Source: Dictyostelium discoideum (taxonomy: Eukaryota). From it: DNA of 64,000 nucleotides. The stretch is from contig CM000151.3 in the NCBI GenBank assembly GCA_000004695.1, positions 3,488,001-3,552,000 on the forward strand, written 5' to 3'. Under the pieces are notes generated by a model. The model saw only the letters and a program-made list of their open reading frames with translations. It did not search any database and was not told the DNA's origin. Below are positions 34-17,086 of the stretch, in pieces. Positions within the stretch are counted from its first letter, which is position 1; each line of letters starts with the position of its first letter. Position numbers and translations under genes: made by a program.

Positions 34-2587
34 ATGGATATTATTGAATTTATTGTTAGAGGTATTTCATTTCAAGTACGTAGTTATTGTAATCTTATTA
101 AACCAATCGAGCAATGGAAACAAAAAACCTATCAACAAAGATATCAACAATTCAAGAAAGCATTGCATTTAAATAATGAAGTTTATAAAAGAATCGTTTG
201 TAATGGCGTTTGGAAATCGGAGAAATTAGATTACATTTATCGTTATAAAAGTGACCAGTTATCATTGGTTGGTATAATTGAAAGTGATTGCTCAGATTTA
301 TTCATTTCAACATTATTAATCGATTCAAATAGTTATGAACAATTGGAGAATGTTTGGAGATTAATTTGTAATTTTGATTCATTTTCAATTGCTTCCAAAT
401 TTTTAATTGAATTTTTCAAATTGGATAAGGTTAATAATAAATTAAATTTTTCAATTCATCCATCATCAGATGCAAATGAAAATTATAAAAGAACTAAAAC
501 ATCAACCAATTCAAATTTATCGATTGATCTCGTTAGATTATTAGAGTTTACAACTACAAACTTTAGTATCAATGTTGCAAAACTTTTAATTTCAAAATTC
601 CCAACATTTATAACTTCAATACCATCAAGAAATAGTTTATGGGGTATTGAATCAAGATCTTCGCTAAATCCAATTGAAAATCATTTTAGAATTTTAAATT
701 GTTCTTTTGATTTTAATAATCATCAAATTCCAATTGATAAACAAAAAGATTATATTAATTTATTTACAAAAAATTTAATTCATTTTAATACTGAAATTAA
801 TGAAATTGAAGATTTAATTTTAAAAGAACGATATCATATATCAATTAGATCAATTAATAATAATAATCATGATGATGATGATTATGATGATTATGATGAT
901 GATGATGATCATCATTCTGGTTGTAACAATAATAATAATAATAATAATGATGGTGATCATAATGAAGATGAAAATAGTATTAAAGAAGAAAGTTTAATAG
1001 AATTTTCAAATTATAAAGTTGATTCAATGATTTCAAGATTATTAAAATATAATGCACCGTCAACAACTATTATTGCTTTATTATCAAATTTAGTTTGTAA
1101 TCATATGGGTGTTTCTCAAAGAATTTTAATACTTTCAACATTAATTGAAGAAATTCAAATGATAGAATCATTATTAGTTCAAAATGATAGTTTTAAAACT
1201 TTTATGCTTTGCGAATCAATGGTTTCAACACCAAATAGATGGAGTAAACAAAGTATTCCATTGGTTTTCTTTGCTTATATTGGTAGTGATATTTTAAATT
1301 TAAAAGAACGTCCAATGTTTTATAAATTCTTTGATTTAAATCCAAGATTATTATTATCAATCATACCAGTACCATTAATTTTTAAAACTTTTTTAAGTTG
1401 TTCAGATATAATTAGAAATAATTTTGAAGATGATTTAATTAATTTTGAAGATGATGATTCAAGTAGTGTTAATTTCTTTGGTTTCACTTCAAACTTTTCA
1501 AATTCTGATCAAGATTATTTGTCGGCTTTAGAAACTTGTTTTGAAAATTCAAATGTTTTCAATGATCAACAATTAAAACAAATGGCAAGAAAGCTATTAA
1601 CTTTTTCAAAGAGAGAAAATCAATCTAGAATCGCTGAATCTGAACTATTGGAAGAGTTGGAACTTGAAGAAAAAAGAAAGAAACAAAAACAACAAGAAAA
1701 AATTAAAAAAAGATTAAAAAGAGAGAAAAGATTAAAAGAAAAACAAGACTTACTCTTAATTAAACTTGAAAAACAAAAAGAAAAACAACTTGAAGAACAA
1801 ATGAAAAAAAGAGAAAAGAAACTACAAAAATTGGAAAGAAAAAGATTATATAAAAAACTTCAAGATGATGAAAAACAAAAATTAATTGAAAAACAAAAAC
1901 AAAAAGAAAAAGAAAAAGAATTATCAAAACAAAAAGAAAAAGAATTTGAATTATTAAAACAAAAAGAAATTGATGAAATTAAACAAAAAAGTATTCAAGA
2001 AATTGATGAAATTAATAAAAATATTCAACAAAATCAATTAAAAATTGATGAAATTAATAAAAAATTAGAAATTAAAGAAATTCAAAATTTTCAATTACCA
2101 TTATTAAATCAACAACAACAACAACCACCACCACTTCAATTATTAAAACAACAGCAACAACAACCATCATCATCATTAACTATTCAATTAGAATCAATAA
2201 CACCAATTTTAGAACCAAAAAATGATAATGTAGTTTTATTAAAATCATCAATTGAAACTCCAATTGATTCTGTAAAGAAAATTCAATCAATTATTGAAAT
2301 TCAATTAGAAGAAGAAAATCAAAAGAAAAAAGAAATGGAAACAATTGATGAATATGAAGAGATTAATATTAATAAAAAACAAATTAATAGTAATATGAAA
2401 TGGGGTGGAATTGGTGAACCATCTTGGATTTCTGTTAAAAAGGATAATAAAAAATCAAAATCAACAATAACAACATCAACAACACCAACAACAACAACAC
2501 CAGCAAAAGTAATTACATCACAATTCAAAAATGAACAAACTAAAAAATTAATAATTGAAAATAATAAAAAACAAAATTTAATCAATG

Positions 2588-2659
<72 letters not shown>

Positions 2660-3984
2660 TAAATAATATAATTCAAGATGAAGATTTTGTATCAATTGGT
2701 AAATTTAAATTTAATAGAAATGAATCAAATATATTAGGTAGAGGTTCAAATGGTACATTAGTATTTAAAGGTTTATGGAGTGATAAAATACCAGTTGCAA
2801 TTAAACAAATGCAAAAAGCATTCAATCCACTTATCAATAAAGAAGTTGAAGCATTAATTTCATTAACAAGTAAAAATTGTTCAAATATGATTAGATATAT
2901 TGATAAAGAGGAAGATAAACTTCATGTATATTTAGGTTTAACATTATGTGATGGATCATTACAGAATTTAGTTGAAAGTGGTAAATTAAATGATTTTGTT
3001 ATTTCATCAAACAAATCAATTATTGAACTTGCAAAAGATATTCTCTTTGGTATTCAATTCCTTCATTCTCATGATATTGTTCATAATGATTTAAATCCAC
3101 GTAATATTTTAACATTAATTGGTAAAACTAGTAATAATAATAATAGTTCAAATAACTCATTCATTATATCAGATCTTGGATTAAGTAAAATGGAAGTTGA
3201 ATCATCATATTCATTTACAAGTAATATACCAACAGGTCAAGGTGGTTATCATCCATTTGAAGTATTACAAAGTAAAAGAATGACAAAATCTGTCGATATA
3301 TTTTCATTGGGTTGTATTTTATTTTATCTTTTAACAAATGGTCAACATCCATTTGGTAATGATAAATTATTTCGTATAGTTAATATAATTTCAAATAAAA
3401 TGAATCTAACTCCATTGAATTCAAATCAATTGGCTTGTACTTTAATTAAATCAATGATTTCAAAAGATGAATCAATTAGACCAACCATCCAAAATGTTTT
3501 AAATCATCCATTGTTTTGGAATTTAGAAAAGAAAATACAATTCATTGATGCAGCTTTAAATTTAATTAAAGAACCTTCAAACTCAAGTTACAATTCAAAG
3601 TTAACAAAACAATTAAATCATTGTGATGATAATGATGAACCATTTTTAAATGATTCTTGGAATCATTTAATTGATGTAACCAATCTTTTAACACCAACAA
3701 AAGGTTCAAAAATAACCATTTCATATCAATATGATAAAGTTAGAGATTTAATTAGATTCATTAGAAATACAATTGCTCATCATAAAGAAATTAAAAGAGC
3801 AATCATTCAACAATTTCAAAATCAACAATCACGTCCAAATTTAGAAGTTTTAGAGTATTTATCAAGTCAAGATTCTATCTTATTATATTTTGAATCAAAA
3901 ATTCCAAATTTAATTCATCATATTTATCAACAATTAAAACAATATTCTTTAACTATTGATTATTTATTTAATTTTTATAATTAA
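34..3984 (+). CDS. Ire1/RNase L-like protein: N-terminal region, Lys/Glu-rich coiled-coil, poly-Asn/Gln tracts, C-terminal protein kinase domain fused to KEN (kinase-extension nuclease) domain. Dictyostelium irl (IRE-like) family type. May have an upstream exon outside the window, because the frame is open to position 1.
   Basis: A 1316-aa ORF. Kinase motifs: GRGSNGTLV (Gly loop), [22 protein letters not shown] (catalytic loop), ISDLGLSK (DFG-equivalent), HPF...LQSK (APE region). KEN motifs: [19 protein letters not shown] and [18 protein letters not shown], compare Ire1 HPFFW...LLRALRNKKHHY. Paralogous to the ORF at 52442-56569. Confidence 0.85.
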
Positions 3985-5479: not shown

Positions 5480-6770
5480 AATTTTTCTAATCCATTCCTT
5501 ATGATCAATAAGAGTTATATCTTCTTCATTTGAAATTGATTTTAAATATTTTGTTAGATGGAATAAGACATTATCACCATACTTTTTAGCATCTTTAATT
5601 TTAAAAGGTGGAACATGTACACCATTCTTTGGATTCATTGCAAAGTTTTTGGAGAGATCATCAACATGTAAAGTATTTTTCATACTAAAGAATTTACCTA
5701 AATGTTGATGTTTCCAAATTACTTCCAATGCTTTTACATTATGTTTAATTTTAGTTCTCTCTTTACCATTGATGGTTCTATAGGTTGTTACCTTAAACAT
5801 TAATGTTTGATCCATTACAAAACAAATTTTAAAACGTGGATTAGTTAATAATCCCAACTCTGTTAATTTAATTTCAATCCATTTCCAACTAGTTTGAGAC
5901 CAAATTCCAATATCATAATGTTGATAGGATTGTACTAAAAATTCTTCTAAATGTGGTCTTTTCATATCTATATTTATTTAAAAAAAAAAAAAAAATTAAT
6001 TATTTATTTTATTTTATTATATTATTTTATTTTATTTATTTTATTTTATTTTATTTTTATTTACTTTCAACATCTTGATCTTTAAAATCTAAAATTGTAT
6101 GATCTAAATCTAAAACTAATAATTTTTTATTTGGTCTTGGGTCATTAATTAAAGAGATATCATTTGAACGTTCAATCATTGCAAGTAATTGATTTTTATT
6201 TTTTTCAATATGAGAGATTTCATCAGAATCTGGGATATAATCAAATTCGAAATCATTGAATACCTCATCGGTATCACCACTTGTTTTTGGAACGTCAGCA
6301 ATAATATTTGACTCTGGTGTACCCATCATAATGATACTATGATTATCTTGAATTGATAATGATTCTATTATCATTTCATCAGTTGGTTGTTTACCTTTTG
6401 ATAATCCTAAAATTTTTTGTCTCTTTGATAATACATTTGTCATTGTTTCCAATTGTCTCTTTAAATCAAAAACTGTTGAACTCTTTGAAATCAATACTTT
6501 ATATTCTTTACCATTCCATTTGGTTTTTATTGTAATTTTTGAATTTTCTTCATTTATTATTGTTGTTGTTGTTGTGGTTGTTTTTGTTTTTAAATCAGAG
6601 TCATTTATAATATTAGTTGTTGTTGTTGTTGTAGTTGTAGTAGTGGTATTAGTTGTAGTGTTATCATTTGTGTTATTACTATTAGAATCTGTTGTTGTTA
6701 TTATACTATTTATTGTTGACTCTGTTGTTGTTGGTGGATTAGTTGTTGAGGATGAAACTATTGTATCCAT
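5474..6770 (-). CDS. UBLCP1 homolog (ubiquitin-like domain-containing CTD phosphatase 1). Two exons, 6770..6065 and 5967..5474, with an AT-rich intron 6064..5968 (GTAAAT...ATATAG).
   Basis: Exon 1 encodes a Thr/Asn-rich N-terminus, a UBL domain (KWNGKEYKVLISKSSTVFDLKRQLE...IMMGTP) and an FCP/SCP-type DxDxT motif (LVLDLDHTIL). Exon 2 (MKRPHLEEFLVQSYQHYDIGIWSQTSWKWIE...) aligns with human UBLCP1 [29 protein letters not shown]. The phase-1 junction gives VE-N-MKRPH in frame. Confidence 0.85.
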
Positions 6771-11368: not shown

Positions 11369-12451
11369 TTAATAATCATTGATATCTTGATATACATAAT
11401 GTAATTGAATTGGTTCTGTTAATTCCAAAGGGGTGTGACAACAACCAGTTTTTGGAGAGCAAGAATCAATTGTACAATCATTACCATCATCACAAGAAAT
11501 TGGAGAATGACAACAACCAGTTGTTGGAGAACAAGAATCTATAGTGCAAGCATTACCATCATCACATGAAATTGGTGAATGACAACAACCAGTTTCCATT
11601 GAACAAGAATCTGCAGTACATTGATTACCATCATCACAACTAATTTGATTATGACAACAACCAGTTGAAGGGGAACAAGAATCGGTAGTACATTGATTAC
11701 CATCGTCACAAGAAATTGGAGAATTACAACAACCAGTTTCAATTGAACAAGAATCGGTAGTACATTGATTACCATCATCACAGGTTATTTGATTATGACA
11801 ACAGCCAGTTGAAGGCGAACAAGAATCAAAAGTACATTGATTACCATCATCACAAGTTATTTCATTATGACAACAACCAGTAGACTCTAAACATGAATCA
11901 GTGGTACATTGATTATTATCATCACATGAAATTGGTAAATTACAACAAGCACCAGTTGAATTTGAACAAGTATCAGTGGTACATTGATTAATATCATCAC
12001 AAGAAATTGGAGAATAACAACATTCACCAGTTGAAGGTAAACAAGAATCAACAGTACAAGCATTACCATCACAACATTCTACATTTGTATGGGTACAACA
12101 ACCAGTTTCTTTTAAACAACCATCATTGGTACAAGCATTACCATCATCACATGAAATTGGGGAATAAAAACAACCACTAGATTTTGAACAACCATCAATG
12201 GTACAAGCATCACCATCATTACATTCAATATTGATATGTGTACATCCAGTTTCAATTGAACAACCATCAGTAGTACAATGATTACCATCATCACAATTTA
12301 TTTCAATATGGGTGCAACATCCTTGAATACATAAATCTGTTGTACATTGATCACAATCATCACAATCTAAATTACAATCACATAATTCTTGGCAATTAAT
12401 AATTAAAATTATTATTAAAATTATTAAAATAAAAAAATATTTTTTAATCAT
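11369..12451 (-). CDS. Secreted Cys-rich protein built from about 13 tandem Dictyostelium CTDC repeats (C-x-D-G/D-N-x-C-T-x-D-x-C units)
   Basis: N-terminal signal peptide MIKKYFFILIILIIILIINC. Repeats of about 24 aa (SPISCDDGNQCTTDSCS...TGCCH) give 72-bp DNA periodicity. Confidence 0.8.
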   Translation of the reverse strand: MIKKYFFILIILIIILIINCQELCDCNLDCDDCDQCTTDLCIQGCCTHIEINCDDGNHCTTDGCSIETGCTHINIECNDGDACTIDGCSKSSGCFYSPISCDDGNACTNDGCLKETGCCTHTNVECCDGNACTVDSCLPSTGECCYSPISCDDINQCTTDTCSNSTGACCNLPISCDDNNQCTTDSCLESTGCCHNEITCDDGNQCTFDSCSPSTGCCHNQITCDDGNQCTTDSCSIETGCCNSPISCDDGNQCTTDSCSPSTGCCHNQISCDDGNQCTADSCSMETGCCHSPISCDDGNACTIDSCSPTTGCCHSPISCDDGNDCTIDSCSPKTGCCHTPLELTEPIQLHYVYQDINDY

Positions 12452-13161
12452 TTTATTTGTTTATATTTATATTTAATTTATTTGTATTTATTTATTTGTA
12501 ATTATATTTTAATATTATAATTATTATTAATAAAATTATTTTTTTAATTTTTTTTTATTTTTTTTATCAATTTATATTTAAAAAAGATAAGTTGACATAT
12601 TTTCTTAAATTAATAAATTTTCTATTTATTTTATAATTTATTTTATAATTACTTTATTAATATAAATTATTAATTTATTATTTTAAATATTTTTTATTTA
12701 AAAATTTTTCCAATTCCAGTCATTTTTAATAAAACAATATTTTAATTTCTTAAATAATCCATTTTAAGTTTGTTTTATAATAAAATGATACTTTTGAATG
12801 AATTTAATTGTTTTTTTTATTTTTATCACTTTGAAATTCTTTTTTTATTCATTTTTTTTTTTTTTATTTATTTTATCACTTTCATTTTTATTCATTTTTT
12901 TTTTTTTTTTATTTTTTATTTTTTTTTTTTTTTTTTTAATTTTTTTAATTTATTTTTATTTTTATTTTTATTTTTATTTTTTATTTTGTTATTCATTATT
13001 TTTTTTATTATTTTTTTATTATTTATTTTTTATTTTTTCACACTCACACTCTTATTTTTTTATTATTTATTTTTTATTTTTTCACATTCACCCAAAAAAA
13101 AAAAAAATTTGGCACATTAACAGTATTATTAATAATTTCAAAATTTTCAAAAATTCATCAA

Positions 13162-13588
13162 ATGTTAAATCATAACCAAGAAGAAAATGATATTCAAGAA
13201 ATAATATCTGATACTGATTCAGAAACGGAATCAGAATCTGATTCAGATTCAGAGAGGAATAAAGGAAAATTCAGACATAATAGTAGATTTGAATCATGTA
13301 AAAGATTTAAATCAAAAGCAAGTAAATTTAATATTAATAATAGAAAAGAAGTTATTGAAATTAGTGATGATGATGATACAGAAGATGAAGATCTTCAAAA
13401 AGCAATAGCATTTTCTTTAGGTACAACTACTATCGGAAATAATAATAATAATAATCGTTCACATATATTATCAATGATTAGAAATAAAAATAATTCTTCA
13501 CCACCTTTACTTGAAAATTCAATTGATAGAAATCAATTTTATTCAAATAAAAAATCATCATCATCATATAATAATTTTAACAATAATT

Positions 13589-13670
<82 letters not shown>

Positions 13671-13675
13671 TAATA

Positions 13676-13710
<35 letters not shown>

Positions 13711-14199
13711 GATAAAAAAGAGAGTGGTACAATTATTGGTGGAGTTTTAATTGATAAAAATGAGAATTATAAATTTAAACCAAATTCATTTTATTTAAAT
13801 TCAACAAATGAACAACCTAGAATTTGTACAATTAATACATTATCATTTAAAGATTTAATAAAGAAACCGGGAATGGTTGGAGCATTGGTAAGTGGATTTG
13901 CACTTGATCCAGAATGGGTAATAAAAGAGATACGAAAAGAACATGGTAACAAAGTTAAATTTACATTTGTAAAGAATTATAGTAAACCTGAAACAAAAGG
14001 TCGCCATGCTATTAATGATTTCATTACAGTTATTAATCCACCATTATTTAATTATCAACTATATCATTCAAAATTAATGATTTTCACGTTTGTTGATTTA
14101 GTTAGAGTTGTAATACCATCTTCAAATCCAACAAAATTTGATTATTCAGGTTGGGGTCAAACAATTTGGTTTCAAGATTTTTTAAAAAAACAACCAAAC

Positions 14200-14276
<77 letters not shown>

Positions 14277-14506
14277 AACAACAACCACAACAACAACTAC
14301 TACTACTACTACAACTGCAACTGCAACAAATAATTCAAATTCAAATTCAAATAATGAATTGGGTATTGAATTTTTAAATGGTTTAAAACACTTTTTAAAA
14401 AGTTCTGGTGTTGAAGAGTTTGCTTTTTTGGATGATTTTGATTATTCAAATTGTGCAGTTAAATTAATAACATCAATCCCAGGAATTTATAAATTAGAAA
14501 AATCAA

Positions 14507-14569
<63 letters not shown>

Positions 14570-15047
14570 GTAATGATGAAAATGTTGATAAAACAAGTTC
14601 AAGTTTTGGTAGTGGTATTTATACATTACAAAAATATTTAAATCAATATTACAAGGATCAAGAAAATAATACAGTAGTAAATGAAAATCAATCACCTCCA
14701 TATAAATATGTAAAGGATTTATATTGTCAAACATCATCTTTAGGTGGTGATAGAAGTGATTTTAGAAATGTTTTTACAAATTACGTACTATGCAATAATC
14801 AAAATCAAAATTCAAATAATCAAAAAAGAAATAAAAGTGTATTGAGTGACAAGCCATTACATATTATTTTTCCAACTAAAAATTGGATAAGAGGTAATCC
14901 AATTAGAGCTATGACTTCAGGTTGTTTATTTTTATCAGTTAAAAACTATGATAATGATAATTCATCTTTTAGTCATTTTTCTTCAAAATATTTTTATCGT
15001 AAAGATTTAGTTCATCATAGTAAAATTATGGTTGGTACAACTACCTT

Positions 15048-15087
<40 letters not shown>

Positions 15088-15366
15088 AATAATAATAATT
15101 ATAATAATAATGATGATAGAATAAAATATGATTGGGTATATACTGGTAGTCATAATTTTTCTTTATCAGCTTGGGGTGCTTTCCAAAAGAATGAAAGTCA
15201 AGTATCAATTTCAAATTTTGAAATTGGTGTTTTATTATTGAATCCAAATCCATCATTAAATGATTTCACTTTACCTGATTGGGTGAGAAATATTCCTTTC
15301 AATATACCATCAAATTTTTATAAACCAAATGAAGTTCCATTCATTCAAGAAGTAGAATTTAATTAA
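13162..15366 (+). CDS. Tyrosyl-DNA phosphodiesterase 1 (TDP1) homolog with an N-terminal ubiquitin-interacting motif (UIM) and long poly-Asn/Thr inserts
   Basis: UIM: DDTEDEDLQKAIAFSLG. The two HKN motifs of TDP1/PLD superfamily: HSKLMIFTFVDLVRVVIPSSN...GWGQTIWFQDF (human [21 protein letters not shown]...QGIWLSPLY) and WVYTGSHNFSLSAWGAFQKNESQVSISNFEIGVLLL (human [36 protein letters not shown]). Confidence 0.85.
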
Positions 15367-16468: not shown

Positions 16469-17086
16469 ATGGATAGTTGTGATTATAAATCATATGCACA
16501 GGCATTAGATTTAGTTAATGATAAAGAATTAATTGAAGAATATAAGAAATATCATAAAAATGTTTGGAAAGAAGTAAATGAAGCATTATGCTCAATAGGA
16601 ATTAAAAAAATGAAGGTAAATTTTACAATTATAATAATTGATTTCATTTATTATTTATTATTTATTATTTTTAATTTAATTATCCATAAAAATTTATTTT
16701 CTAATTTTTTTTTTTTTTTTTTTTTTTCTAAATTTAGATTTTTTTACTTGGAACCCATCTTTTTATGTATTATGAAGCAAGAGCTGATTTTGATCCAAAA
16801 ATTGATTTCCAAAAATATACAGAATTAACACCAAAAGCAAATGAATGGGATAACTTAATGAGGTAAATTTAGATCTTTTTTTTTTTTTTTTTTTTTTTTT
16901 TTATTCCTATAATATTTATTAAATATTATTTTTTTTATTAATGTTGTATAAAATTTATATTTTTTATTTTTAAAAAAAAGAAAATTTCAACAAAAAATAT
17001 CTGATATTCCAGAAAATCAATTAGGTGAATGGTGGAGTCCAATGGATTTAGTTTATGATTTGGATTGGTTTAAACAACAACAATAA
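16469..17086 (+). CDS. L-rhamnose mutarotase-like (RhaM/DUF718 family) small protein. Three exons, 16469..16615, 16738..16862 and 16981..17086.
   Basis: Exon 1 (EEYKKYHKNVWKEVNEAL) matches RhaM EEYQRRHNPIWPELEAVL. Exons 2-3 encode IFLLGTHLFMYYEA...GEWWSPMDLVYDLDWF. Donors are GTAAAT and splice phases are consistent. Confidence 0.65.

What the first reader, a model, noticed from the sequence alone, without database searches (positions are those of the whole stretch)
13162..15366. TDP1 ortholog carrying an N-terminal ubiquitin-interacting motif
The catalytic HKN-motif halves are clearly TDP1. The N-terminus adds a canonical UIM (DEDLQKAIAFSLG) after an acidic Ser/Asp-rich stretch. Metazoan TDP1 has no UIM, so this suggests recruitment to ubiquitinated (for example, degraded Top1) adducts through a built-in reader.
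Basis: partly seen in the sequence, partly recalled or inferred. Interest (0 to 1): 0.5.

Follow-up and report, generated by a model that had tools for sequence, protein, structure and literature searches.

The report
TDP1 with built-in SUMO/ubiquitin reader
This Dictyostelium gene encodes the DNA-repair enzyme TDP1 with a short ubiquitin-binding motif, and a likely SUMO-binding motif directly before it, on its flexible N-terminus; the same add-on occurs in TDP1 of many non-animal eukaryotes, which suggests the enzyme is guided to tagged, DNA-trapped topoisomerase.

Summary
Window 13162..15366 (+) is one intron-less 734-aa ORF encoding TDP1 (Pfam PF06087, E = 6e-46) with both HKN catalytic motifs intact.

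Residues 73-86 (TEDEDLQKAIAFSL) match the UIM consensus. The Pfam UIM score is borderline: 15.7 bits in the full protein and 22.6 bits as an isolated peptide, against a 21-bit cut-off. Conservation settles the matter:
- Three of five other dictyostelid orthologues keep a canonical UIM.
- 30 of 150 TDP1 representatives carry a UIM upstream of the catalytic domain (0.9 expected). They include Amoebozoa, five fungal phyla, a malawimonad, a euglenid and a glaucophyte.

Directly upstream lies a SUMO-interaction-motif-like core (VIEI, residues 64-67) with a CK2-type acidic tail. It is present in every dictyostelid orthologue and sits within 30 residues upstream of the UIM in 10 representatives (0.013 expected).

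The most likely function is a composite SUMO/ubiquitin reader that brings TDP1 to modified TOP1-DNA crosslinks. Binding itself is untested.

I found no paper linking TDP1 to a UIM. I rate this a new variant of a known kind, of moderate interest.

The parts
13162..15366 (+). Complete intron-less TDP1 ORF, 734 aa plus stop codon
   Evidence: ORF list. Pfam PF06087 E = 6.3e-46. Nearest relatives are dictyostelid TDP1s.
13204..13254 (+). N-terminal acidic Ser/Thr cluster ISDTDSETESESDSDSE (aa 15-31). CK2-type sites; possibly a weak second SIM-like element together with I11/I14/I15.
   Evidence: Read from the sequence. Comparable hydrophobic-plus-acidic N-termini occur in Heterostelium (LIFDLD...), Acytostelium (LVYNVDDD...) and D. 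purpureum (VLSFDSDSEDE). Function is inferred.
13255..13347 (+). Basic Lys/Arg-rich stretch (aa 32-62); putative nuclear localisation or DNA-contact region
   Evidence: Sequence composition only. Inference, not tested.
13351..13362 (+). SIM-like hydrophobic core V64-I65-E66-I67
   Evidence: Meets the SIM core definition of at least 3 of 4 V/I/L (PMC12751080). Non-helical in the AF2 model. An equivalent core with acidic tail occurs in all five other dictyostelid orthologues.
13363..13392 (+). Acidic, phosphorylatable linker SDDDDTEDED (aa 68-77). It serves as the SIM acidic tail (CK2 consensus at S68 and T73) and also as the acidic N-cap of the UIM.
   Evidence: Read from the sequence. The recurring D-D-x-D-T-E-P-E motif follows the SIM cores in Heterostelium, P. 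violaceum, Acytostelium and Cavenderia. Acidic/CK2 flank as described in PMC12751080.
13378..13419 (+). Ubiquitin-interacting motif TEDEDLQKAIAFSL (aa 73-86). Core is L78-x-x-A81-I-x-x-S85.
   Evidence: Pfam PF02809 scores 15.7, 17.6 and 22.6 bits depending on context, against a 21-bit cut-off. AF2 places a helix at 75-86, in the best pLDDT stretch of the N-terminus. Nearest solved sequences are the ataxin-3 and RAP80 UIMs.
13831..15246 (+). TDP1 catalytic domain (aa 224-695), interrupted by poly-Asn, poly-Thr and poly-Ser tracts
   Evidence: Pfam envelope. Alignment to human TDP1 chains.
14065..14127 (+). First HKN motif: H302, K304, N322
   Evidence: The H-to-N spacing of 20 residues equals that of human H263/K265/N283 (PMC5778467).
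15016..15156 (+). Second HKN motif: H619, K621 ... N665, with a Ser/Asn homopolymer insertion between K and N
   Evidence: These positions are invariant or nearly so across 150 representatives.

Best explanation
The ORF encodes the Dictyostelium orthologue of tyrosyl-DNA phosphodiesterase 1. The catalytic HKN domain removes 3'-phosphotyrosyl peptide remnants of trapped topoisomerase I.

Its disordered N-terminal regulatory arm carries a compact composite reader:
- A parallel-type SUMO-interaction motif, VIEI followed by SDDDDTEDED, probably strengthened by CK2 phosphorylation of S68 and T73.
- A single-helix ubiquitin-interacting motif, LQKAIAFS, running straight on from it.

Proposed mechanism. 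Trapped TOP1-DNA crosslinks are SUMOylated, then ubiquitylated by a SUMO-targeted ubiquitin ligase, and trimmed by the proteasome. The SIM-UIM arm binds the SUMO/ubiquitin marks on the crosslinked protein or its immediate surroundings. This concentrates TDP1 at the lesion, so the phosphodiesterase can act as soon as proteolysis exposes the tyrosyl-DNA bond.

Shown here: TDP1 identity, intact catalytic residues, presence and conservation of the UIM, and its co-occurrence with SIM-like cores.

Inferred: ubiquitin and SUMO binding, the identity of the marked target, and the order of events.
For: TDP1 identity:
- Pfam 6e-46, both HKN motifs, dictyostelid orthologues as top hits.

UIM:
- It matches the consensus acidic4-phi-x-x-A-x-x-x-S.
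- Pfam E is 0.014 in full length and 8e-5 as a peptide.
- A helix at 75-86 is the most confident element of the N-terminus.
- Orthologous UIMs occur in P. violaceum, Acytostelium and Cavenderia.

Family-wide:
- 30 of 150 TDP1 representatives have a UIM core upstream of the catalytic domain, against 0.9 in composition-preserving shuffles (max 5).
- Pfam UIM reaches E <= 0.05 in 18 of 150.
- Balamuthia has three copies at 39.8 bits.
- A profile of the TDP1 UIMs retrieves ataxin-3 (4.5e-10), Vps27, S5a/Rpn10, STAM2, USP25/28, Hrs and RAP80.

SIM:
- The core plus acidic tail meets the published definition (PMC12751080).
- It is found in all six dictyostelid proteins.
- 33 of 150 representatives have it, against 3.1 expected.
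- It lies within 30 aa upstream of a UIM in 10 proteins against 0.013 expected, and downstream in only 1.

Convergence:
- Other TDP1s carry different ubiquitin readers at the same end: NZF/RanBP2 fingers, five of them with the C-T-F-x-N signature, plus CUE and UBM.

Pathway context:
- TOP1-DPCs are sequentially SUMOylated and STUbL-ubiquitylated in human and yeast (PMC7673754).
- Tandem SIM-UIM modules read hybrid SUMO-ubiquitin chains in RAP80 (PMC3646854).
- TDP2, the sister activity, uses an N-terminal UBA-like ubiquitin reader (PMC5778467).
Against: - The window's UIM is below Pfam's gathering score in its native context (15.7 against 21 bits) and lacks the C-terminal acidic residue of the consensus.
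- There is only one UIM. RAP80-type avidity for chains uses tandem UIMs.
- The two other dictyostelid orthologues have lost or degraded the UIM: D. purpureum, the only other Dictyostelium species in the set, and Heterostelium. The motif is therefore dispensable in some lineages.
- SIM-like patterns are loose, and acidic low-complexity sequence is common in these genomes.
- In budding yeast, siz1 and slx5 mutations are additive with tdp1 (PMC7673754). In fission yeast, Tdp1 becomes essential without the STUbL pathway (PMC5778467). Both point to parallel pathways rather than a linear one, at least in those species.
- No binding or localisation data exist for this protein.
Confidence: 0.55

Rival explanations
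1. The UIM acts in cis on TDP1 itself. It would promote coupled mono-ubiquitylation, or fold back on a ubiquitin or SUMO attached to TDP1, and so control the enzyme's stability, activity or residence time rather than target it to a modified substrate.
For: - UIMs are known to direct coupled mono-ubiquitylation of their host proteins (established knowledge of endocytic UIM proteins, not tested here).
- Human TDP1's N-terminal arm is itself a hub of modification, including SUMOylation at K111 that promotes accumulation at breaks (PMC5778467).
- USP25's SIM promotes its own SUMOylation between its UIMs (PMC3646854).
Against: - Convergent acquisition of several unrelated ubiquitin readers (UIM, NZF, CUE, UBM) and PAR readers (PBZ, WWE) at the same position fits recruitment modules better than one particular cis-regulatory mechanism.
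- Multi-copy UIMs, such as the three in Balamuthia, suggest chain avidity.
Confidence: 0.15
2. The UIM docks TDP1 onto the degradation machinery rather than the substrate. It would bind ubiquitin-like domains of shuttle factors (Rad23, Dsk2, Ddi1 type) or chains held at the proteasome or p97, so TDP1 travels with the protease that trims the crosslink.
For: - The TDP1 UIM profile's strong PDB hits include the S5a/Rpn10 UIMs, which are known to bind UBL domains as well as ubiquitin (established knowledge).
- TDP1 needs prior proteolysis of the adduct (PMC7673754).
Against: - This does not explain the tightly linked SIM-like core.
- No direct evidence either way from sequence.
Confidence: 0.1
3. 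The hydrophobic-plus-acidic element with its conserved Thr (DDDD-T-E-P/D-E) is not a SIM. It would be a CK2-phosphorylated ligand for an FHA domain of an end-processing partner (PNKP, aprataxin or APLF type), as in XRCC1 and XRCC4, with the UIM working independently.
For: - The Thr within D-D-x-D-T-E-P-E is strikingly conserved after the hydrophobic cores in four dictyostelid genera.
- TDP1 leaves a 3'-phosphate that PNKP must remove.
- PNKP lies about 1.1 kb downstream of TDP1 in D. purpureum.
- Some TDP1s carry FHA domains themselves, which shows phospho-reading is used in this system.
Against: - The FHA ligands of XRCC1 and XRCC4, as I recall them, have no V/I/L core, whereas that core is the conserved feature here.
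- The D. purpureum PNKP record lists no FHA domain.
- The directional adjacency to UIMs (10 upstream, 1 downstream) matches described tandem SIM-UIM modules.
Confidence: 0.1
4. The UIM-like and SIM-like strings are chance products of acidic low-complexity sequence and have no function.
For: - The Pfam score is sub-threshold in native context.
- The motif is lost in D. purpureum and Heterostelium.
- The genome is rich in simple repeats.
Against: - UIM cores are enriched about 30-fold over shuffled N-termini.
- SIM-to-UIM adjacency is about 750-fold over shuffles and is directional.
- UIMs pass Pfam's cut-off in several orthologues.
- UIM status tracks catalytic-domain relatedness: 16 of 28 against 7.4 expected.
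Confidence: 0.05

Closest known systems
Human and yeast TDP1 (PLD-superfamily HKN phosphodiesterase, PF06087)
   Same: Same catalytic domain with both HKN motifs. Same two-part layout of a disordered N-terminal regulatory arm plus a C-terminal catalytic domain. In human TDP1 the arm is dispensable for catalysis and needed for recruitment (PMC5778467).
   Different: The human arm is described as a target of phosphorylation, PARylation and SUMOylation (S81, K111), not as a reader, and no UIM is reported. Here the arm carries reader motifs for ubiquitin and probably SUMO. The catalytic domain is also split by long Asn, Thr and Ser homopolymers.
RAP80 and USP25/USP28 tandem SIM-UIM modules (hybrid SUMO-ubiquitin chain receptors)
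   Same: A short hydrophobic SIM with an acidic, phosphorylatable flank lies close to a UIM helix in a disordered region of a DNA-damage-response protein (PMC3646854, PMC12751080). There are weak Pfam hits to RAP80_UIM and USP_UIM_N. USP25, USP28 and RAP80 UIMs are retrieved by the TDP1 UIM profile.
   Different: RAP80 and USP25 have two UIMs whose spacing sets linkage preference, whereas the window protein has one. HMMER alignments to USP25/28 covered only the UIM core, not the SIM. The effector here is a phosphodiesterase, not a scaffold or a deubiquitinase.
TDP2 N-terminal UBA-like domain
   Same: A tyrosyl-DNA phosphodiesterase that carries its own N-terminal ubiquitin reader and also binds SUMO. 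Ubiquitin-binding mutants only partly rescue etoposide sensitivity (PMC5137425; PMC5778467). This is the closest functional precedent.
   Different: The catalytic fold is unrelated (EEP rather than PLD/HKN) and the ubiquitin-binding fold differs (a helical bundle rather than a single UIM helix). SUMO binding in TDP2 maps to the catalytic domain rather than to a linear SIM.
Other lineage-specific TDP1 N-terminal or inserted modules (echinoderm PBZ, plant TDP1-beta HIRAN, FHA-bearing TDP1s)
   Same: The same principle applies: a conserved catalytic core with an interchangeable recruitment module. Evidence: PBZ in Acanthaster TDP1; PBZ, WWE, FHA, NZF, CUE and UBM in other representatives; HIRAN in plant TDP1-beta (PMC7762302).
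   Different: Those modules read poly(ADP-ribose), phospho-threonine or DNA 3' ends. The module here reads ubiquitin and probably SUMO.

Membership tests
TDP1 (Tyr-DNA_phospho, PF06087) | Profile match above the curated cut-off | tested here: met
   157.6 bits against a 22-bit cut-off, E = 6.3e-46, residues 224-695
TDP1 (Tyr-DNA_phospho, PF06087) | Two HKN motifs (His, Lys, Asn in each half) | tested here: met
   H302/K304/N322 and H619/K621/N665. They align to the human TDP1 motifs and are invariant or nearly so in 150 representatives.
TDP1 (Tyr-DNA_phospho, PF06087) | 3'-phosphotyrosyl-DNA phosphodiesterase activity | not testable with these tools
   Needs an enzyme assay
UIM (PF02809) | Consensus: acidic x4, hydrophobic, x, x, Ala, x, x, x, Ser, x, x, acidic | tested here: met
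   E74-D-E-D77, L78, Q, K, A81, I, A, F, S85, L, G. All positions are met except the final acidic residue, which is T88.
UIM (PF02809) | Profile score at or above the gathering score of 21 bits | tested here: inconclusive
   15.7 bits in the full protein, 17.6 in the N-terminal 135 aa and 22.6 as a 34-aa peptide. The score depends on the composition correction of the surrounding sequence.
UIM (PF02809) | Single short alpha-helix in an otherwise unstructured region | tested here: met
   AF2 single-sequence model: helix at 75-86, with the 81-90 block having the highest pLDDT (74) in a chain of mean 57.6. Confidence is modest.
UIM (PF02809) | Conservation at the equivalent position in orthologues | tested here: met
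   P. violaceum 26.9, Acytostelium 19.5 and Cavenderia 15.3 bits as peptides. Heterostelium (Ala replaced by Val) and D. purpureum give no hit. 30 of 150 family representatives have a UIM core.
UIM (PF02809) | Binds the Ile44 patch of ubiquitin | not testable with these tools
   Needs a pull-down, NMR or ITC
SUMO-interaction motif (SIM) | Four-residue hydrophobic core with at least three V/I/L | tested here: met
   V64-I65-E66-I67. Definition from PMC12751080.
SUMO-interaction motif (SIM) | Adjacent acidic and/or phosphorylatable Ser/Thr stretch | tested here: met
   S68-DDDD-T73-EDED follows the core (the parallel-SIM arrangement). S68 and T73 fit the CK2 pattern S/T-x-x-D/E (sequence).
SUMO-interaction motif (SIM) | Conservation and above-chance occurrence | tested here: met
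   Present in all five other dictyostelid orthologues. 33 of 150 representatives have it, against 3.1 in shuffles (max 10). The motif definition is loose, so this is supportive and not proof.
SUMO-interaction motif (SIM) | Binds the SUMO beta2/alpha1 groove | not testable with these tools
   Needs a binding assay with Dictyostelium SUMO
Tandem SIM-UIM hybrid-chain receptor (RAP80/USP25 type) | SIM in close proximity to UIM(s) | tested here: met
   Ten residues separate the core (64-67) from the UIM hydrophobic position L78. Ten TDP1 representatives show a SIM within 30 aa upstream of a UIM, against 0.013 expected.
Tandem SIM-UIM hybrid-chain receptor (RAP80/USP25 type) | Two or more UIMs giving chain avidity or linkage selectivity | tested here: not met
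   Only one UIM in the window protein. Balamuthia has 3, and 8 of 150 representatives have 2 or more. The window protein may work like a tSIM-UIM reader but should not be filed as a RAP80-type tandem-UIM receptor.
Tandem SIM-UIM hybrid-chain receptor (RAP80/USP25 type) | Preferential affinity for mixed SUMO-ubiquitin chains | not testable with these tools
   Needs defined hybrid chains and affinity measurements

The most novel reading that the evidence does not exclude
A SIM-UIM (or more generally ubiquitin-reading) N-terminal arm is the ancestral or default state of eukaryotic TDP1. It would physically couple the phosphodiesterase to the SUMO, then STUbL, then ubiquitin marking of trapped topoisomerase I. 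Animals and budding yeast, the only lineages studied, would be the exceptions, having replaced direct reading with PARP1/PBZ-based recruitment and cis-SUMOylation. The hand-over from proteolysis to TDP1 would then be hard-wired in most eukaryotes and could be dissected genetically in Dictyostelium.
Probability: 0.3. Interest if true: 0.7.

Novelty: new variant of a known kind. Interest (0 to 1): 0.5.

Why it matters
How TDP1 is brought to a trapped topoisomerase at the right moment, after the bulky protein has been marked and trimmed, is still explained mainly through PARP1 and modification of TDP1 itself in human cells.

A ubiquitin-reading, and probably SUMO-reading, motif built into TDP1 across Amoebozoa, fungi and several protist lineages suggests a direct physical link between the SUMO/ubiquitin tagging of DNA-protein crosslinks and the enzyme that finishes the repair. 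This mirrors what is known for TDP2.

Dictyostelium is genetically tractable. Point mutations in residues 64-67 and 78-85 give a clean test. The observation also warns that the two standard models, human and budding yeast, may be atypical for TDP1 regulation.

Tried and rejected
1. Word-indexed homologue searches with the full protein and with a homopolymer-stripped version each returned one hit, because poly-Asn and acidic words swamped the index. A catalytic-only alignment found only two dictyostelid orthologues. The exhaustive representative search solved this.

2. Exact-sequence look-ups of the window protein found nothing, so I could not name the species or strain. The Dicty_CTDC repeat gene next door and the composition indicate a Dictyostelium genome.

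3. I suspected the missing UIM of D. purpureum was hidden in a mis-called intron. The locus is indeed one uninterrupted 798-aa ORF. The restored segment, EEEEEEDLKKKALDDLRSQLS, has non-canonical spacing and gives no Pfam UIM hit, so I rejected the idea. The motif is degenerate there.

4. My first boundary for 'upstream of the catalytic domain' used an HKN regular expression. It missed 56 proteins, and an earlier version counted five false UIMs inside the conserved L..A..SSF..D..W core. I replaced it with hmmsearch-defined boundaries.

5. A profile of SIM+UIM segments was meant to align across the SIM of USP25/28. HMMER aligned only the UIM core, so that resemblance rests on the literature.

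6. Literature searches for TDP1 with UIM or ubiquitin-interacting motif, and for Dictyostelium with TDP1, found no description of this architecture. Domain databases could not be consulted.

7. Conserved linkage to PNKP, seen in D. purpureum, is not present in this window.
Full report
**What is at the coordinates**

Window 13162..15366 on the + strand is one uninterrupted ORF of 734 codons, from ATG to TAA. A very T-rich promoter-like region precedes it. Asparagine makes up 23% of the residues because several poly-Asn, poly-Thr and poly-Ser tracts are inserted.

Pfam's Tyr-DNA_phospho model covers residues 224-695 with 157.6 bits against a 22-bit cut-off, E = 6.3e-46. phmmer aligns both halves to the human TDP1 crystal-structure chains. 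The two HKN motifs that define TDP1 within the PLD superfamily (PMC5778467) are intact. They are H302/K304/N322, with the same 20-residue H-to-N spacing as human H263/N283, and H619/K621/N665. The TDP1 assignment is secure. The neighbouring gene at 11369..12451 (-) consists of 12 Dicty_CTDC repeats, so the window comes from a Dictyostelium-type genome. The exact protein is not on record in the collections I could query.

**The UIM**

The sequence E74-D-E-D-L78-Q-K-A81-I-A-F-S85-L-G fits the UIM consensus (four acidic residues, hydrophobic, x, x, Ala, x, x, x, Ser) except for the trailing acidic position.

Pfam's UIM model matches residues 73-86, and the score depends on context. The gathering score is 21 bits.

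| Context scored | Bits | E-value |
|---|---|---|
| Full protein | 15.7 | 0.014 (whole library) |
| N-terminal 135 aa | 17.6 | 0.0032 |
| 34-aa peptide | 22.6 | 8e-5 |

By Pfam's curated threshold the call is therefore borderline. Three other results support it:
- A single-sequence AlphaFold model of residues 1-135 is largely disordered (mean pLDDT 57.6). A helix at 75-86 coincides with the UIM, and the 81-90 block has the highest confidence, 74.
- The closest solved sequences to the peptide are the ubiquitin-binding UIMs of ataxin-3 and RAP80.
- The motif is conserved in orthologues, as described next.

**Orthologues**

The word-indexed search was defeated by low-complexity words. An exhaustive HMMER search with a catalytic-domain profile found 2850 TDP1-family representatives and returned the best 150. 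The closest are dictyostelids. Their UIM scores as isolated 34-aa peptides are below.

| Species | Sequence at the UIM position | Pfam UIM, bits |
|---|---|---|
| Polysphondylium violaceum | DEDEDLRYAIKLSLEQS | 26.9 (21.5 in full length, above cut-off) |
| Window protein | TEDEDLQKAIAFSL | 22.6 |
| Acytostelium subglobosum | EEDESLKLALALSMD | 19.5 |
| Cavenderia fasciculata | YDDDLEYAIQQSLLD | 15.3 |
| Heterostelium album | EEDQILQEVLKRSL (Val replaces the key Ala) | no hit |
| D. purpureum | EEEEEDLKKKALDDLRSQLS (wrong spacing) | no hit |

For D. purpureum I fetched the locus. The deposited 658-aa model removes in-frame sequence, and the region is one uninterrupted 798-aa ORF. The restored segment still lacks a canonical UIM. 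The UIM is thus canonical in three of five other dictyostelid orthologues and degenerate in two.

**The motif is family-wide**

I defined the region upstream of the catalytic domain with hmmsearch boundaries and counted motifs in the 150 representatives.

| Measure | Observed | Composition-preserving shuffles |
|---|---|---|
| Proteins with at least one UIM core (40 instances; 8 proteins with 2-3 copies) | 30 | mean 0.9, max 5 |
| Proteins with a SIM-like core plus acidic tail | 33 | mean 3.1, max 10 |
| Proteins with that SIM within 30 aa upstream of a UIM | 10 | mean 0.013 |
| Proteins with that SIM downstream of a UIM | 1 | not computed |

Pfam independently reports UIM at E <= 0.05 in 18 of the 150. 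Examples are Balamuthia mandrillaris at 39.8 bits with three copies and Keelungia at 25.3 bits.

Named carriers:
- Amoebozoa: the dictyostelids, Balamuthia, Pelomyxa.
- A malawimonad: Gefionella.
- A euglenid: Keelungia.
- A glaucophyte: Cyanophora.
- Fungi from five phyla: Nowakowskiella, Gongronella, Lobosporangium, Kwoniella, Aulographum and Patellaria.

Their catalytic domains are only 21-46% identical to one another. UIM status still tracks catalytic relatedness: 16 of 28 UIM-positive proteins have a UIM-positive nearest neighbour, against 7.4 expected, and only 9 of 2000 label shuffles reach that. The motif is therefore inherited within lineages rather than random noise.

A profile built only from the 39 TDP1 UIM segments retrieves almost exclusively bona fide UIMs from the PDB. 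These are ataxin-3 (4.5e-10), Vps27, Rpn10/S5a, ZFAND2B, STAM2, USP25, USP28, Hrs, RAP80 and ANKRD13D. One caveat: the segments were selected with a UIM-like pattern, so this test is partly circular.

Directly upstream of the UIM lies V64-I65-E66-I67, followed by S68-DDDD-T73-EDED. This meets the current definition of a SUMO-interaction motif: a four-residue core with at least three V/I/L, flanked by acidic and phosphorylatable residues. The acidic stretch follows the core, as in parallel SIMs, and such flanks are typical CK2 targets (PMC12751080). The acidic tail doubles as the acidic cap of the UIM.

Every dictyostelid orthologue has at least one such element:
- Heterostelium: VVVIDLDDDDTEPESE.
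- P. violaceum: IIVLDDEDTEPED and IISIITNDDEDTEPED.
- Acytostelium: TIIDVQDLDDDDTENE.
- Cavenderia: QIINVDDDDDTEPED.
- D. purpureum: LLVIEEDDDDD.

They often share a conserved D-D-x-D-T-E-P-E tail. Examples from distant lineages with the SIM directly before the UIM are VVITDSDDEMVDEDADLARAIALSLQ (Keelungia), VVTISDDEDDPELAAAIALSLQ (Gefionella) and AIVVDDDDDEDLQAAIRASLQ (Cyanophora). The directional adjacency counts are in the table above.

**Convergent readers**

Other TDP1 representatives carry different modification readers at the same end:
- Seven begin with a RanBP2/NZF-type zinc finger. Five of these have the C-T-F-x-N dipeptide that I recall as the Npl4-type ubiquitin-binding signature; this rests on my own knowledge and was not tested. 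Two combine the NZF with a UIM (Pfam counts).
- Single cases carry CUE or UBM.
- Others carry the poly(ADP-ribose) readers PBZ and WWE, or FHA domains.
- Plants insert a HIRAN domain in TDP1-beta (PMC7762302).

The N-terminus of TDP1 thus behaves as a slot for recruitment modules, and ubiquitin readers are the most frequent occupant among the 150 representatives scanned.

**Mechanism**

Established knowledge gives the framework:
- TDP1 hydrolyses the 3'-phosphotyrosyl bond only after the trapped TOP1 has been proteolysed.
- TOP1-DNA crosslinks are modified in sequence by SUMO and then, through a SUMO-targeted ubiquitin ligase (RNF4 in human, Slx5-Slx8 in yeast), by ubiquitin, which leads to proteasomal trimming (PMC7673754).
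- Tandem SIM-UIM modules in RAP80 bind hybrid SUMO-ubiquitin chains about 80-fold better than homotypic chains and recruit repair factors (PMC3646854).
- TDP2, the 5'-tyrosyl counterpart, uses an N-terminal UBA-like domain to bind ubiquitin and also binds SUMO (PMC5778467).

I therefore propose that the SIM-UIM arm of this TDP1 binds SUMO/ubiquitin marks on or around the crosslinked TOP1 and concentrates the enzyme at the lesion. Binding, the identity of the target and the order of events are all inferred.

Points against a simple linear pathway:
- In budding yeast, siz1 and slx5 are additive with tdp1.
- In fission yeast, Tdp1 is essential when the STUbL pathway is missing.
- The window protein has a single UIM.
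- Two dictyostelids have let the motif decay.

The rivals are listed in their own section: cis-regulation by coupled ubiquitylation, docking to UBL shuttle factors or the proteasome, an FHA-ligand reading of the acidic Thr motif, and chance. Chance is strongly disfavoured by the enrichment statistics.

**Comparison and membership**

- The protein is a member of TDP1; profile and catalytic motifs were tested and met.
- The N-terminal helix qualifies as a UIM by consensus, predicted structure and conservation. The Pfam threshold result is inconclusive, and ubiquitin binding cannot be tested here.
- The VIEI element qualifies as a SIM by its loose sequence definition and by conservation. SUMO binding cannot be tested here.
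- It should not be filed as a RAP80-type tandem-UIM receptor, because the second UIM is absent. It may still work like one.

**Novelty and verdict**

Five literature searches, plus a term check within a plant TDP1 phylogeny paper, found no paper that links TDP1 to a UIM or describes this architecture. Domain databases, which may list it automatically, could not be consulted.

The enzyme and both motifs are well known, and the combination appears undescribed. Its breadth across eukaryotes, with absence from the two standard models as far as I could check, is the interesting part. I rate it a new variant of a known kind, with interest 0.5. My confidence in the proposed mechanism is 0.55. By component it is about 0.98 for TDP1 identity, about 0.8 for a functional UIM, about 0.55 for a functional SIM and about 0.45 for TOP1-DPC as the target.

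Noticed in passing
L001:3001-5397 (D. purpureum contig GL871288.1): The deposited D. purpureum TDP1 model (P0006, 658 aa) splices out in-frame sequence. The locus is one uninterrupted 798-aa ORF whose extra ~140 residues include a second SIM-like element (YIYLSDSEEE) and an acidic run plus helix at the position where other species have the UIM. The gene model is probably wrong.
   Followed up: yes
L001:6507-8057 (-): In D. purpureum a PNKP gene (PNK3P + AAA_33 domains) lies about 1.1 kb downstream of TDP1. PNKP is the enzyme that removes the 3'-phosphate TDP1 leaves behind. This linkage is not present in the window.
   Followed up: partly
P0001, P0005, P0018 (Heterostelium, Cavenderia, Pelomyxa): These TDP1 orthologues are named 'protein-tyrosine phosphatase 3' in NCBI and UniRef. 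This looks like a propagated misannotation of a tyrosyl-DNA phosphodiesterase.
   Followed up: no
P0039, P0066, P0068, P0079, P0123, P0131, P0139 (TDP1 representatives): Seven TDP1s begin with a RanBP2/NZF-type zinc finger, five of them with the C-T-F-x-N dipeptide typical of ubiquitin-binding NZFs. P0068 and P0123 (Nowakowskiella) combine NZF and UIM. CUE, UBM, PBZ, WWE and FHA modules also occur in the family.
   Followed up: partly
window 14194-14350, 14512-14571 and 15052-15117: Long Asn, Thr and Ser homopolymer tracts are inserted inside the catalytic domain. One lies between the H-x-K and the Asn of the second HKN motif (K621 to N665, against 21 residues in human). The fold evidently tolerates large loop insertions.
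   Followed up: no
window 34-3984 (+): A 1316-aa ORF with a protein kinase domain followed by a Ribonuc_2-5A (KEN) domain, which is an IRE1-like architecture.
   Followed up: no
window 11369-12451 (-): A 360-aa secreted-looking Cys-rich protein made of 12 Dicty_CTDC repeats (E = 2.6e-108). It is diagnostic of a Dictyostelium genome.
   Followed up: no
window 6057-6770 (-) and 16469-16828 (+): A 237-aa ORF with a ubiquitin-family domain, and a 119-aa ORF whose first ~50 residues match L-rhamnose mutarotase (rhaM) before running into low-complexity sequence. The latter is probably the first exon of an intron-containing gene.
   Followed up: no
window 13030-13100: The T-rich region just upstream of the TDP1 start contains a near-perfect direct repeat (ttattttttcacactcacac / ttattttttcacattcaccc). 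It may be a promoter element or a replication-slippage duplicate.
   Followed up: no
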